NCBI GenBank assembly: GCA_037440465.1
Contig: JBBIUB010000007.1
Location: 1 to 64,000 of the forward strand
DNA: 64,000 nucleotides
Direction of reading: 5' to 3'
From: Coprothermobacterota bacterium
GTDB taxonomy: Bacteria > Coprothermobacterota > HKB111
Positions 42,001 through 48,000 of the stretch are shown in pieces. Position numbers: made by a program. Every line of letters begins with the position of its first letter. Positions within the stretch are counted from its first letter, which is position 1.

Positions 42001-45000
42001 AAAACTCTGCTCTTGGTTTAGGTATAGGGTTAGCAAGCGTTGAAGAGATTGATATAATGAACATTCAACAAGCTACATTATTATCTATGAAGAGAGCGCT
42101 ATTGAACATGGACTTGGCGGTTGATGTCCTTATCATAGATGGCATTAATCTTCTACCAGGAATAGAAATAACCCAGATAGCTTTTCCCAAAGGAGATCTT
42201 CATATACCTGTAGTAAGCGCTGCTTCAATAGTAGCTAAAGTTGTAAGAGATGAAATAATGAAAAATCTTTCTTATAATTTTCCAGAATATGGATGGGAGA
42301 AAAATAAAGGTTATGGCACTAACTTACACCGAGAAAGTATCCTGCGGTGGGGTCCTTGCATCCACCACCGAAAGTCATTTCTTCATGAATAAAAAAGAGT
42401 TAGGTAAATGGGGTGAGGATTATGCCCTTACCAAACTAAAAAAAGAAGGCTATTCGTTAATAGTACGAAACTTTACCTCTCCCTACGGGGAGCTTGATCT
42501 TGTAATGAAGAAAGATCGTTCACTATGTTTTGTAGAAGTAAAAACAAAACGTGGGCTTGAGTTCGGACTTCCAAGAGAAGAGGTAACAGAAAAGAAACTA
42601 AATCATATAAAAAAAGCTGTCCTTTATTACCTTAATCGGAACTCTAATAATCTTAACCCTATCTTCTTATATGTGGCTGAAGTAATTATCCTGCCAGAAG
42701 AAATCAAATTTGAACTTATCCAGGTGGTAAAAATACATGATAGCTAAAACATTTTCAGCAACAAACTGGGGTATGGAAGTTATTCCTGTTGAAGTCGAAG
42801 TAGAAATTAGTAAAGGATTACCTAATTTTATTATTGTTGGCTTACCTGATCAAGCAGTCCAGGAATCTACAGAAAGAGTCCGTTCAGCATTAAAAAATAT
42901 GGGTATGGCTTTTCCCCCTGGAAGAATAGTCATAAATATGGCACCTGCTGACTTAAGGAAAAAAGGTCCTAACCTTGATTTATCAGTAGCTATCGCTATA
43001 TTAATTCATGAAGGTGTTATCTCAGCTAAACAGGTAAATGGTAGGCTATTCATAGGTGAACTTTCTCTAAGCGGAGAATTGCGCTCTGTCGAAGGTGTTC
43101 TTCCCATTGCTTTAAGTCTACCTAATCATCATGTAAGCGAAATAATAGTTCCAATGGCTAATTTAGAAGAAGCAAGGCTTGCACGCAAAGTACCCTCTTT
43201 AGGTTTTAACAACCTTCAGGAGGTAGTATCTTTCCTAAAAGACGGTATACCTCCAGAACAAATTATTGATACTATTGTAGATTCTGATATTACAACTGAA
43301 ATTGACTTTACAGATATTAAAGGGCAACCTCTTGCAAAAAGAGTGTTAGAGATATCTGGTGCTGGCGGACATAATACTCTTCTGGTAGGAAGTCCTGGTA
43401 GTGGTAAAACACTACTATGTAGAGCATATCCTGGTATTCTTCCCATTCTTACTGAAGGCGAATCTATAGAAGTATCAAAGATTTTTAGCATAGCTGGTTA
43501 TTTAAAAAAAGGAAAGCTCATAAACATACCACCATTTAGATCACCTCACCACACAATATCTACTATAGGCTTAATAGGTGGAGGAAGTATTCCAAAACCA
43601 GGTGAGATAACCTTAAGCCATAGAGGGGTTCTTTTCATGGATGAGTTGACAGAGTTTAAAAGAGAAGCACTTGAAGCATTAAGGCAACCATTAGAATCTT
43701 CCACTGTTACAATTGCCAGAGCATCAGGCAGCTTAACTTATCCTTCTAAATTCATATTACTGTCTGCTATAAACCCATGTCCATGTGGTTATTACGGAGA
43801 CACTATTAAAGATTGTCGCTGTAGTCCAGGCGAAATAAAAAAGTATCGGTCAAAAATATCTGGACCAATTTTAGATAGAATCGACCTTCATCTTGAGATG
43901 CCTTCTTTAAAGATAGAGGAGCTCAAAGAAACCGGTAACGCAGAACCCTCAAGTGAAGTAAGAAAAAGAGTAGAAAAGGCTCGGAAAATCCAAAGGGAAA
44001 GATATAAAGATGAAAAGTTCTCTTTAAACTCTGAGCTAAACCCCAGGACAATAAAAAAATATCTTGATATAACCAGAGAAGGGAAGCAACTTTTAGAAAT
44101 GGGAGCAAGGCGGCTTGGTTTAACTGGTAGGGCTTACGACAAAGTAATAAAAGTTGCTATGACTATTGGCAATCTAAATAATTCCACTACAGTCAGATCA
44201 GAACACATAGGTGAAGCTTTAACTTACAGAGAAAGCACTTTTTATGAATAACTGCCTTATTGCTTTACATTACTCAAATATATTTTCATATAAAGAACTA
44301 AAATGCTTAGAAGAAAAATACGGAGATTATGAACAAGCCTGGATTAAGCTTGAATATCAGCAACCCTTATTTAGGGATCCTTTGGAAGAAAAAAATATTA
44401 AAGAATTTATCAGAAAGAATAAACCAGAAGACTTAATTTCAAAACTAAGGTATCAGAATATCAATCCTATTACTATTTATGATACTAATTATCCATCCTT
44501 ATTAAAAGAAAGCAAAAATCCCCCTCTGGTTCTTTATACAAGAGGAGAATTAAGCCTATTTCAGGAAAATATGTTGGCCATTGTTGGCACCAGATCGCCT
44601 ACACCCTATGGTAGAAAAGTAGCCTACGAGTTATCCTCTGATTTATCAGGCCAATTAACCATAGTAAGCGGATTAGCACTTGGGATAGATAGTGAGGCTC
44701 ATAAAGGAGCCATTAAAGGAATAAAAAAGACAATTGCTATCCTGGGGTCTGGTTTAAACCACCCTTACCCACCTCAGAACATAAATCTTTTCAAAGAGAT
44801 AGTTTTGCATGGTGGACTTTTGTTATCTGAATATCCACCATTTATTAAACCAGAAGCCTGGAGATTTCCTCTTAGAAACAGGATTATTGCTTCCATAAGC
44901 CTGGGAACTGTGGTTATAGAAGCTGGTAATAGAAGCGGTGCGTTAATTACTGCCCGAATTGCTCTTGATGAAGGAAGAGAGGTCATGGCAGTGCCTGGCC

Positions 45001-48000
45001 TTGTAACCAATCCTAAAGCAACTGGCTCCAATGCTCTTATAAAAGATGGAGCTCATCTCATTTCTTCCTCTGTAGATATCATGGAATTATTCTCTTTTCT
45101 GCCAATGTTTTTAAAACAAAAAAACGCAAAAGAAAAAGACGAAAACGAACTTACTTCTCTTCTTTCTGGTGGACCTTTATCAGTCGAAGAATTATCTACC
45201 CTATCAAAGAAATCACTTGAGTACATTCTTTATGACCTTACTCTTCTCGAATTAAAAGGCGATATCAAGAGAGAGGGTGGGTTATATTACCGCTTAAAAG
45301 GTTTAGAGTAAATTTGAAAAAATTATTATACATTCCAGTCATTATTCTTTTAATCTCACTTGACCAATTAATTAAATATTATTTTAATTCTAACCCCGAA
45401 AAGTTAATCCATTTTTGGTTTCTAGAATTAAACCTTCTTAAAAATTATGGTGGGCTTTTTGGCTTACCACTTTTTGGAGGAATCTTTGGCCAAATTATAA
45501 TCCTGACCATCATTACTCTGCTATGGTTTTGGGTAATGACTACAAAAAGCTCTTATTTTCTTACTTGTGGTACTTCATTGATTCTAAGTGGTGGTTTCTC
45601 TAACCTTATTGACCGCATATATCAAGGTTATGTTATAGATTATATTAATCCCGGCTTCTGGCCCGTTTTTAATCTGGGAGATGCCTATATATCTATAGGT
45701 GTAGTAGTAATCATCTGGGTAGTATTATTTGGAAAATTTCATAATTAACGAGACTGATCGTATTGATATTCTCATAACTAAAAACCTATCTATTCCGCGG
45801 ACTTTAGCACAAAAGCTTATTAAAGATGGAAATGTAAATATTGAGGGGATAACCATATATAAACCCTCATATAAAGGCAAGATTGGTGGGGTTGTATCTA
45901 TTAATATTCCTCCACCTGTTGTTTTGGGAGAAGGGAAAGAATATCCATTAAAGATAGTCTACGAAGATAAATACCTTTTAGTAGTTGATAAACCAGCAGG
46001 ATTAATTACTCATAGAGGCGTAGGAATCAAATCTACTACTCTTGTTGATGCCCTAATCTGGAAAGGAATTGAACTTCCTATTTGTGGTAGGCCATTTAGG
46101 CCGGGTATTGTCCATAGACTTGATAAAGATACATCAGGATTAATTGTGGTTGCAAAAAATGATGAAACATATTTCAAACTTGTAAACATGATTAAAAAAA
46201 GAGAAGTAACAAGAAGCTACCTTGCTCTGGTTAAAGGCAATCCTCCTTCTAAGGGTATCATAAAACTACCACTTAGTAGAGACTGGCGAAGAAAGACAAC
46301 TATGACCGTTAATTTAGGTGGTAGAGAAGCATTAACATATTTTGATACCATTGAATACATCAATGATTTTACTCTTTTAAGACTTATATTAGAAACGGGT
46401 AGAACTCATCAGATTAGAGTACACTTGAAGTATTCAGGTTTTCCAATAGTTGGAGATACTGTGTACGGTTTCTCTACACCCCTTCTTCCCAGACAATTTC
46501 TGCATGCTTTCAGACTTAGCTTTTTGCATCCTGAAACAAATGTAAATAGAACCTTTTTCAGCCCATTACCCTTAGACTTACGATTACTATTAAAGATATT
46601 ACGGGATAAGAAGAGTTGAGCAGGCTCGGTGTCCACCTTTCATTAGCTTCAGGGATTCCTCATTTGTTGAAGGAGATACAATATCTTAATATCAACGCTT
46701 TACAAATCTTCAGTGGAAACCCAAGAAGTTATCGATATTCTTCAACACTCAATGAAGAAAGACTTTCTGTTTTAAGAAAAAGCTTGCGAGAGATGGGAAT
46801 TTATCCTTTAATTATCCATTCGCCTTATGTACTTAATCTCGGTAGCTTAAAAGAAGAAGTTGCAGTTAAATCTGCTTACACATTAGAAAATGAGTTAAGA
46901 ACTCTTGAGATTCTTGATGGCAGCTATCTCGTATTTCACGCTGGAAGTAGTAGAAGTCCAATAAATGAAAAAAGGTTCCTATTCTTACTTGAAGGTCTTC
47001 TCGACCAGATTGCTCCCAGGATAAGTATTCTTCTGGAAAATTGCAGTGGTGGTCAAACTTCAGATATAAGTTTCTTAAAAACGCTTATTGTGAGGTCTGG
47101 AAAATCAAAAAACCTTGGGTTATGCTTAGACACCTGCCATCTTTTTGCGGCTGGTTATGATATTAGAAAAATGGAGAATGTAAAAAGGGTTTTTGAAGAA
47201 GCTAACGGATTTATAAAGTTGATTCACTTAAATAATTCCAAGGCACCAGCTGGGTCTAAAATAGATAGACATGAACACCTTGGTAAAGGTTTGATAGGAA
47301 ATATTGGACTTAGTCAGTTTCTACATTATCCTGCAATTAAGAACATACCTGTCATTCTTGAAACTCCAAAGGACCATCCTCAGGCTGATAATGATAATTT
47401 AAAAATTGCCCGACATATTTTAGGAATAGATTCAATATCTGTTGACATATTGACTAATTGATGTATACTTACTATAATTATCTTAAATTACCTTAAGGCT
47501 ATTGCTATAAAGGAGGCATTGTAAGATGGAAACTTTAAAGGTAGGCAAGAACTCAGAACCAAAAGGTGTAGCAGGTGCTATTGCAGCGGTGATCAGACAG
47601 AGTAAAAAAGTTGAGATTCAAGCTATCGGAGCAGGTGCAGTAAACCAGGCTGTAAAAGCCATAATAATTGCCAGGGGTTATCTATCCCCTAATGGCATGA
47701 ATCTATTTTGCACACCGTCCTTTGCAGATGTCCAGATTGACAGCGAGGAAAGAACAGCTATTAGATTTCTTGTTGAAGTCAAGTAAAGGAGGCAAGAAAT
47801 GTCAGAAGTAGAAATATTAAAAATTGCAGCCACATCAGCACCCAAAGCAGTAGCAGGGGCATTAGCCACAGTAATACGAAATAACAAACAAGTAGAACTG
47901 CAAGCTATCGGAGCAGGTGCAGTAAATCAAGCTGTAAAAGCCATAATAATAGCCAGAGGATCACTTTCTCCCAATGGGATTGAGATAGCTTTTGCCCCCT

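What a model noticed while it worked through the whole genome (the two positions that open the first line are those of the whole stretch)
44244..45748. tRNA body modifications stripped in class HKB111: no TrmB, TrmFO/TrmA, Dus or ThiI
Beyond the listed TruB loss, the genome lacks the enzymes for m7G46, m5U54, dihydrouridine and s4U8, while anticodon-loop enzymes (MnmA/E/G, TilS, TsaBCDE, MiaA/B, MtaB, Tgt/QueA, TrmD, TruA) are kept. tRNA core modification is thus nearly absent in a free-living bacterium; the RsmB/RsmF family is absent too.
Evidence so far: TrmB: no true hit in 4 of 4 class genomes, present in 9 of 9 others. TrmFO over cut-off in G002, G007, not in G000/G011/G012; TrmA/RlmD family 0 of 3 class genomes tested, present in G002, G007. 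Dus: one strong hit in 13 genomes, at a contig edge of G011. ThiI none in G000/G011/G012/G002. RsmB/F 0 of 5, rings in 13 of 14 controls. Place given is the dprA-lspA junction where topA-trmFO usually lie (recalled).
(Added by a program. Inside this text positions count along the whole contig: contig position 1 is position 1 of the stretch shown here. "Call 12" and the like, gene names such as g00115 and contig names such as C1 are that model's own, and its searches are not shown. The text may have been shortened before it was handed on; [...] marks where a part breaks off. The agent that wrote the report below was given it as the finding of a first reader that could run no searches.)

Follow-up and report, generated by a model that had tools for sequence, protein, structure and literature searches.

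The report
Bacterium lacking tRNA core-modifying enzymes
A small-genome subsurface bacterial lineage has lost every known enzyme that chemically reinforces the folded core of its transfer RNAs while keeping those that tune codon reading, a pattern reported before only in parasites and insect symbionts.

Summary
The absence is real. All 4 class genomes lack TruB, TrmB, TrmFO, RlmD/TrmA and both ThiI types. Outside the class TruB and TrmB occur in 9 of 9 phylum genomes and TrmFO in 8 of 9. The loss is secondary: trmFO follows dprA in 8 of 8 sister loci, while dprA abuts lspA in three class genomes, and nrnA abuts ribF where truB sits in sisters. The single Dus lies on a 4-kb contig 85% identical and collinear with a Bacillota genome, so it is probably misbinned. 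Corrections: Dus and RsmB/F are missing across the whole phylum, canonical ThiI is also missing in one sister family, and TrmL and RlmN are lost too. The tRNAs show erosion, not compensation: the near-invariant U55 is C in tRNA-Lys(UUU) of two class genomes and in 0 of 45 outside genomes. Best reading: relaxed selection removed the elbow-modification network as a block, as in Riesia, here in an apparently free-living lineage. Modifications were not measured. One unassigned candidate survives: a B12 radical-SAM enzyme paired with a pseudouridine-synthase-fold protein lacking the catalytic Asp.

The parts
42737..44251 (+). yifB (Mg-chelatase-like AAA ATPase); upstream anchor of the yifB-dprA-trmFO block seen in sister families
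   Evidence: TIGR00368 567.8 bits; orthologue upstream of dprA in the 5 sister trmFO loci examined
44244..45311 (+). dprA; directly followed by trmFO in sister families
   Evidence: TIGR00732 240.8 bits; dprA orthologue next to trmFO in 8 of 8 sister loci
45312..45313 (+). 2-nt dprA-lspA junction: former trmFO site, no remnant
   Evidence: sequence; dprA-lspA-rluD-nfo order shared by G000, G002 and G003
45314..45748 (+). lspA (signal peptidase II); in sister G010 it lies between ileS and rluD, so the junction arose by rearrangement
   Evidence: TIGR00077 73 bits; L104 gene order
45729..46619 (+). the genome's only RluA/RluD-family pseudouridine synthase, closest to RluD (23S rRNA)
   Evidence: RluD model 194.5 bits vs RluA 102.5 and TruC 82.3; single PF00849 match in G000, G002, G003
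48150..49463 (+). miaB, kept A37 methylthiotransferase
   Evidence: TIGR01574 446.3 bits, over cut-off
49450..50376 (+). miaA, kept A37 prenyltransferase
   Evidence: TIGR00174 260 bits
40186..40950 (+). trmD, kept m1G37 methyltransferase
   Evidence: NF000648 268.2 bits
33904..34461 (+). rsmD, kept 16S rRNA m2G966 methyltransferase
   Evidence: TIGR00095 131.3 bits, over cut-off
54289..55098 (-). generic UbiE-like SAM methyltransferase; source of the weak RsmB/F cross-hit; no orthologue among the G002/G003 methyltransferase loci compared

Best explanation
The ancestor of this class lost the genes for Psi55 (TruB), m7G46 (TrmB) and m5U54 (TrmFO), together with rlmD and a ThiI-like protein, in a phylum that already lacked Dus and RsmB/F (shown). 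Its tRNAs therefore most likely fold with an unmodified elbow and core, held by the conserved bases themselves (U8, A14, G18-G19, U54, C56, A58 are all kept), while modifications at 34, 37 and 38-40 secure decoding (inferred from gene content). Cause (inferred): relaxed selection during streamlining of a slow-growing, energy-limited anaerobe. Core modifications add stability and speed but are not needed to read codons, and they act as an interdependent network, so they can be lost as a block. Erosion continues: U55 has become C in some tRNAs, and rsmG is gone from G000 alone.
For: Absence in 4 of 4 class genomes against 8-9 of 9 sisters of similar genome size. Chance that four bins all miss a present gene is about 5e-5 if misses are independent. 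Intact junctions at the trmFO site (three genomes), the truB site (G000: rbfA-nrnA-ribF abut; truB precedes ribF in 8 of 8 sister loci) and the rsmG site. No substitute of known type: one SpoU protein (RlmB), TilS as the only ATP_bind_3 match, and no TrmI, TrmK or TruD in 3 of 3 class genomes tested. tRNA-Lys(UUU) has C55 in G000 and G003, U55 in G001 and in 45 of 45 outside genomes with a match; tRNA-Thr(CGU) has C55 in G000. Stems are weaker, not stronger: 15.4 vs 16.4 and 16.8 G-C pairs of 21 over 32 matched isotypes. Precedent: body modifications go first in reductive evolution (PMC10965804 passage); elbow modifications form a network in T. thermophilus (PMC6313347 passages); the lineage is described as extensively streamlined (PMC9751293 passage).
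Against: No modification was measured. Small size alone does not predict the loss: sisters of 1.2-1.6 Mb keep the genes, and 6 of 7 hand-picked genomes of 1.6 Mb or less keep TrmB (all chosen from Dus-bearing genomes). G000 keeps a full set of 47 tRNA genes, unlike Mollicutes. Lower stem G-C is confounded by lower genome G-C (38% vs 45% and 42%), and tRNAs of one genome are not independent. An unassigned radical-SAM/DUF2344 pair, two unassigned radical SAM proteins and three conserved generic methyltransferases remain. The truB junction was checked only in G000, and the trmB site is rearranged, so it gives no scar.
Confidence: 0.68

Rival explanations
1. The core is modified by unrecognised enzymes. 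Main candidate: the TIGR03960 B12-binding radical SAM protein with its TIGR03936/DUF2344 partner (G000 C10:2047-4537), where a TruA/Pus10-like domain would present a tRNA base for radical methylation. Minor candidates: TruA or RluD with broadened specificity, or generic methyltransferases.
For: DUF2344 is kept in 4 of 4 class genomes at full length and in 12 of 13 phylum genomes, shorter in the sisters. Its model (pLDDT 91.8) matches PUS10 (Z 13.1, rmsd 3.2, 186 aligned) and TruA (Z 12.8, rmsd 3.1, 185 aligned); Foldseek's best hit is TruA at E 1.1e-6. It is fused to the full radical SAM domain in 7 of 149 homologues.
Against: The position that aligns with TruA's catalytic Asp is Pro56 (weak hhalign register, probability 2.7%) and is P/A/S in 91% of 150 sequences, so it is not a canonical Psi synthase. 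The pair coexists with TruB and TrmFO in the sisters, so it did not arise as a replacement. Its substrate is unknown and could be rRNA or the anticodon arm. C55 in tRNA-Lys(UUU) argues against a general U55-directed activity. One conserved generic methyltransferase sits among Mur ligase genes, and none showed an RNA-binding domain among its top Pfam matches.
Confidence: 0.14
2. Cooling is the specific cause: the class descends from thermophiles and dropped heat-stabilising elbow modifications on moving to cooler springs.
For: Sister G010 carries the thermophile set TtuA, TrmI, ThiI and TruD. Class tRNA stems have about one G-C pair fewer. Springs reported for the lineage are 17 and 48 C (PMC9751293 passage).
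Against: In aligned orthologues G000's IVYWREL fraction is not lower than the sisters' (0.442 vs 0.428; 0.433 vs 0.432), and its charged-versus-polar bias is similar to G005 though lower than G010. Mesophiles normally keep TruB and TrmB (established knowledge), so cooling alone does not suffice.
Confidence: 0.12
3. Adaptive loss under hyperalkalinity: m7G and dihydrouridine are alkali-labile, so cells at pH 11-12 avoid them.
For: The lineage is reported from pH 10.7 and 11.9 springs. m7G is cleaved in alkaline mapping chemistry (PMC13602947 passage). The Bacillota genome G013, whose record title names CROMO (recalled as a serpentinite site), also lacks TrmB.
Against: Psi55 and m5U54 are not alkali-labile (established chemistry) yet are lost too. 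Dus is missing in the whole phylum. G013 keeps Dus and U55, and TrmB is missing in 9 other genomes.
Confidence: 0.05
4. Binning or assembly gaps hide the genes, or the G002 Dus is a genuine class gene.
For: All four genomes are MAGs, 83-95% complete; no 16S or 23S motif was found in G000.
Against: Intact junctions; joint miss about 5e-5. The Dus contig (4130 bp, 43% G+C against 35-39% for eight G002 loci with class orthologues) aligns at 85% over nearly its whole length with Bacillota record L152, and the protein's best relative is in that record at 87%.
Confidence: 0.03
5. The absence is primitive: this deep-branching lineage never had the enzymes.
For: The lineage is described as deep-branching (PMC9751293 passage).
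Against: Sisters carry truB before ribF and trmFO after dprA, arrangements shared with distant bacteria (established knowledge). The class keeps the flanking genes, joined. TruB rings in 14 of 14 control genomes (the archaeal hits are presumably Cbf5, recalled).
Confidence: 0.01

Closest known systems
Candidatus Riesia pediculicola minimal tRNA modification set (de Crecy-Lagard 2012; paper not held, seen only through passages of PMC10965804 and PMC13602947)
   Same: Entire loss of tRNA-body modifications, including Psi55, by reductive evolution.
   Different: Riesia is a louse endosymbiont. This lineage has 1.2-1.3 Mb genomes, 47 tRNA genes including Sec, a rich anticodon set (MiaB, MtaB, Q pathway, TadA) and cofactor and energy genes of its own (NadE, PdxS, PanE, LipA, MoaA, HdrA).
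Mollicutes (PMC4014445, passages)
   Same: m5U54 absent in sequenced Mycoplasma tRNAs; TruB lost in hemoplasmas, M. genitalium and M. pneumoniae; TrmB lost in six non-culturable species.
   Different: TrmB and TruB are among the most persistent enzymes there, the organisms are parasites, and they cut the tRNA set to as few as 28.
Bartonella henselae (PMC10965804, passages)
   Same: D16/17, Psi13/65 and s4U8 absent, shown by mapping.
   Different: Keeps TruB and DusA; the loss is partial.
Thermus thermophilus elbow network: TrmB, TruB, TrmFO, TtuA, TrmI, TrmH (PMC6313347, passages)
   Same: The same enzymes; sister G010 has most of them.
   Different: Here the whole network is absent rather than tuned.
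TIGR03960/TIGR03936 (DUF2344) radical SAM system
   Same: G000 has both genes, adjacent, over the NCBIfam cut-offs.
   Different: No function found in print; its retention in this stripped genome is the new clue.

Membership tests
Riesia-type minimal tRNA modification set | No known tRNA-body enzyme (TruB, TrmB, TrmA/TrmFO, Dus, ThiI, TrmH, TrmI, TrmK, TruD) | tested here: met
   4 class genomes; 3 class genomes; filter-free, G000 only
Riesia-type minimal tRNA modification set | Position 34 and 37 enzymes retained | tested here: met
   TrmL and RlmN not found in G000
Riesia-type minimal tRNA modification set | Obligate host-restricted life with strongly reduced metabolism | tested here: inconclusive
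   cofactor and energy genes present; lineage described as a streamlined H2 lithotroph; no full metabolic reconstruction done
Riesia-type minimal tRNA modification set | Modifications absent from the RNA itself | not testable with these tools
   needs LC-MS or tRNA sequencing
Genuine class Dus (G002:C14) | Gene on a contig with class-type neighbours and composition | tested here: not met
   no class orthologues among neighbours; 85% collinear with Bacillota record L152; higher G+C
Pseudouridine synthases (for DUF2344, G000 C10) | Pus catalytic-domain fold | tested here: met
   Z 13.1 to PUS10 and 12.8 to TruA over 185-186 residues; Foldseek E 1.1e-6
Pseudouridine synthases (for DUF2344, G000 C10) | Catalytic aspartate in motif II | tested here: not met
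   aligned position is Pro56 (weak register); P/A/S in 91% of 150 sequences
TruA (G000 C19) | NCBIfam cut-off and RTD motif | tested here: met
   154.6 bits vs cut-off 142.85; SRTD motif

The most novel reading that the evidence does not exclude
The retained TIGR03960/DUF2344 pair is an undescribed tRNA-modifying enzyme: a catalytically dead TruA/Pus10-fold domain flips out a base for a cobalamin radical-SAM methylase. In this class it would supply the only modification of the tRNA core, in place of Psi55 and m5U54, and this stripped genome would be the clue that assigns a widespread orphan family.
Probability: 0.08. Interest if true: 0.85.

Novelty: new variant of a known kind. Interest (0 to 1): 0.55.

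Why it matters
A 2026 review lists Psi55 as absent only from two Mycoplasma species and Ca. Riesia (PMC13602947, section 98). An apparently self-sufficient bacterium with a full tRNA set, from a lineage reported at up to 48 C and pH 11-12, that lacks Psi55, m5U54, m7G46, D and s4U8 enzymes would show that the tRNA core needs no modification outside a host. This bears on minimal-cell design and on why these near-universal modifications are kept. It warns against reading this lineage's simplicity as primitive. C55 in tRNA-Lys(UUU) suggests that TruB recognition helps keep U55 invariant. The short list of surviving RNA enzymes also singles out an orphan radical-SAM/DUF2344 pair for testing.

Tried and rejected
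1) Compensation in tRNA sequence: D-loop U content is not lower (1.69 and 1.72 vs 1.50 and 1.41 per loop), G46 is kept (30 of 33 short-arm tRNAs), and stems are not stronger; rejected. 2) A 192-aa ORF at C5:11533 weakly like the TrmB C-terminal domain (E 9e-5): it has an N-terminal hydrophobic stretch and a profile of nine TrmB C-termini does not find it; rejected as a remnant. 3) G001's broken PF05958 hit: no similarity to sister RlmD. 4) THUMP search: 0 of 5, but it also missed G010's ThiI, so it carries little weight. 5) hn6A synthase as the role of the radical-SAM/DUF2344 pair: M. acetivorans and M. jannaschii make hn6A (PMC10702137 passages) but did not ring for DUF2344, and hn6A probably uses the t6A machinery; weak. 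6) Polyamine compensation: no SpeE or SpeD motif (short recalled motifs only); the decarboxylase candidate is LysA; a saccharopine-dehydrogenase-like ORF (C21:12192) is unassigned; inconclusive. 7) Atlas search of the radical SAM protein returned only its own uncharacterised family. 8) Sequencing runs: no RNA holder listed; no reads were laid. 9) Earlier findings: nothing bearing on this. 10) HKB111 is not in the NCBI taxonomy copy. 11) The Riesia paper is not held.
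Full report
Locus. The window is G000:C7:1-64000 of a 1.28-Mb, 35-contig bin, 94.5% complete. The flagged stretch is dprA (44244-45311) and lspA (45314-45748), 2 nt apart, followed by an RluD-like synthase, nfo, miaB and miaA. The phylum search holds 13 genomes: 4 in the class and 9 in two sister families.

Absences. TruB is present in 9 of 9 outside genomes and 0 of 4 class genomes; TrmB 9 of 9 vs 0 of 4; TrmFO 8 of 9 vs 0 of 4; the TrmA/RlmD family 8 of 9 vs 0 of 4, and the two outside proteins scanned are RlmD. Canonical ThiI occurs only in 2 of 3 f3 genomes; a shorter ThiI-like protein of unestablished function occurs in 8 of 9 outside genomes; the class has neither. 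In the three class genomes tested (G000, G002, G003) there is no TrmI, TrmK or TruD, a single SpoU protein (RlmB in G000), and TilS as the only ATP_bind_3 match over cut-off. Filter-free profile searches and tblastn with sister proteins found no orthologue or remnant in G000. Two absences are older than the class: Dus (0 of 9 outside) and RsmB/F (0 of 13).

The lone Dus. It lies on G002:C14, 4130 bp. Its best relative among GTDB genomes is 87% identical, in a Bacillota record (L152). The contig aligns with that record at 85% over about 3950 bp, its neighbours have no class orthologues, and its G+C is 43% against 35-39% for eight G002 loci with class orthologues. A misbinned contig is more likely than a class gene; a recent transfer is not excluded.

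Loss, not gaps. In G000, G002 and G003 the order is dprA-lspA-rluD-nfo; in G010 lspA-rluD follows ileS, so the junction came from a rearrangement. truB precedes ribF in 8 of 8 sister loci fetched, while G000 reads rbfA-nrnA-ribF with no gap. The trmB neighbourhood is reshuffled and gives no scar. rsmG follows mnmG in G002 and G003 but is gone in G000, where gltX follows: erosion is continuing.

What is kept in G000. tRNA: MnmA, MnmE, MnmG, TilS, TadA, Tgt, QueA, QueH, TsaB/D/E, Sua5, MiaA, MiaB, MtaB, TrmD, TruA. rRNA: RsmA, RsmD, RsmE, RsmH, RsmI, RlmB, TlyA and one RluD-like enzyme. TrmL and RlmN were not found: the only SpoU protein is RlmB, and none of 11 radical-SAM-motif ORFs scored as RlmN. 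All 11 class I methyltransferase candidates were scanned: RsmH, TlyA, RsmD, PrmC, a DNA methylase and six generic ones. Three generic ones have orthologues in G003, one of them among Mur ligase genes. RlmH, Trm1 and DTW families were tested only by short motifs or not at all.

tRNAs. G000 has 47 tRNA genes and tmRNA. I compared them with 37, 41 and 40 tRNAs recovered from G003, G005 and G010 (partial sets). U8, A14, G18-G19, U54, C56 and A58 are invariant. U55 is C in tRNA-Lys(UUU) of G000 and G003 and in tRNA-Thr(CGU) of G000, and in none of 81 sister tRNAs; G000's tRNA-Sec also reads C at this place (no comparator). A pattern search of 63 genomes gave C55 in 2 class genomes, U55 in G001, and U55 in all 45 outside genomes with a match; 15 genomes had no match. 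TruB recognises 53-GUUYRANYC-61 (PMC7912444 passage), so C55 is no substrate. Stems have fewer G-C pairs than in the sisters (15.4 vs 16.4 and 16.8 of 21), but genome G+C is also lower. There is no sign of compensation.

Mechanism. Shown: gene loss at intact junctions, retention of decoding enzymes, drift at position 55. Inferred: the core is unmodified and the cause is relaxed selection. In T. thermophilus m7G46 speeds other core modifications and Psi55 restrains them (PMC6313347 passages); without TrmH, TtuA and TrmI the remaining members have less to do. Against a plain size effect, sisters of equal size keep the genes, and 6 of 7 genomes of 1.6 Mb or less keep TrmB among 17 that I picked from 50 Dus-bearing genomes; 10 of those 17 lack TrmB, so that loss alone is common. 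Temperature proxies disagree. The alkali idea fails for Psi55 and m5U54.

Unassigned candidate. G000 C10 carries a TIGR03960 radical SAM gene and its TIGR03936/DUF2344 partner, kept in 4 of 4 class and 12 of 13 phylum genomes, and in 2 of 14 controls. The DUF2344 model has the TruA/Pus10 fold without the catalytic Asp. It probably binds RNA for the radical SAM partner (inference); the target is unknown.

Literature. The name HKB111 belongs to 'Ca. Lithacetigenota', H2 lithotrophs of serpentinite springs (pH 10.7 and 11.9; 48 and 17 C), described as streamlined; 'tRNA' does not occur in that main text (PMC9751293, passages; supplements not seen and may list genes). PMC11382960 gives four genomes from spring water (one table row). 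Loss of body modifications is known from Riesia (second-hand) and partly from Mollicutes (PMC4014445 passages) and Bartonella. Also seen as passages: PMC9035817, PMC7955657, PMC10702137 and bioRxiv 10.64898/2026.06.24.734251. Searches showed no report of this loss in this lineage or in a free-living bacterium; the library lacks most subscription journals.

Verdict. Real, secondary, partly older than the class; a known pattern in a new setting; unmeasured. Interest 0.55.

Noticed in passing
G000:C10:2047-4537 (L258:1548-4041): TIGR03960 B12 radical SAM plus DUF2344 with a TruA/Pus10 fold and no catalytic Asp; full length in the class, about 155-160 aa in sister families.
   Followed up: partly
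G000:C16:29573-29648; G003:C1:170072-170144: tRNA-Lys(UUU) with C55; the otherwise identical G001 stretch has U55, so the site varies within the class.
   Followed up: yes
G000:C16:29399-29476 and C1:45426-45500: Purine at position 32 in tRNA-Arg(CCU) (G32) and tRNA-Thr(CGU) (A32) in G000 and G003, not in G005 or G010.
   Followed up: no
G000:C15:18971-22253: mnmG is followed directly by gltX; rsmG is lost only in G000 among 5 genomes tested.
   Followed up: yes
G000:C16:18249-18808 and C16:29485-29558: TadA is kept although both tRNA-Arg(ACG) and tRNA-Arg(UCG) genes are present; the tadA frame begins at the tRNA-Arg(ACG) gene.
   Followed up: no
G000:C34 and C35: Two 4-kb contigs of 62% and 69% G+C in a 38% G+C bin, probably contamination.
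   Followed up: no
G002:C14 (L056), also C61 and C202 (L280, L281): Small contigs of higher G+C without class orthologues; G002 holds some foreign DNA despite its 1% contamination figure.
   Followed up: partly
G010 (L040, L073, L095, L295, L296): Family f3 carries ThiI, TrmI, a TtuA-like protein and two TruD copies but no Dus or RsmB/F.
   Followed up: partly
L044, L051: A 340-aa ThiI-like PP-loop protein (NFACT-R_2 domain in the G005 copy) in 8 of 9 sister genomes, lost in the class; its co-loss fits a role in tRNA core thiolation.
   Followed up: partly
window 47526-48068: Two tandem short paralogues that look like SpoVS (name recalled, not scanned).
   Followed up: no
G000:C6:2630-3610 and C21:11398-12150: Two radical SAM proteins with no NCBIfam family at E 1e-12.
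   Followed up: partly
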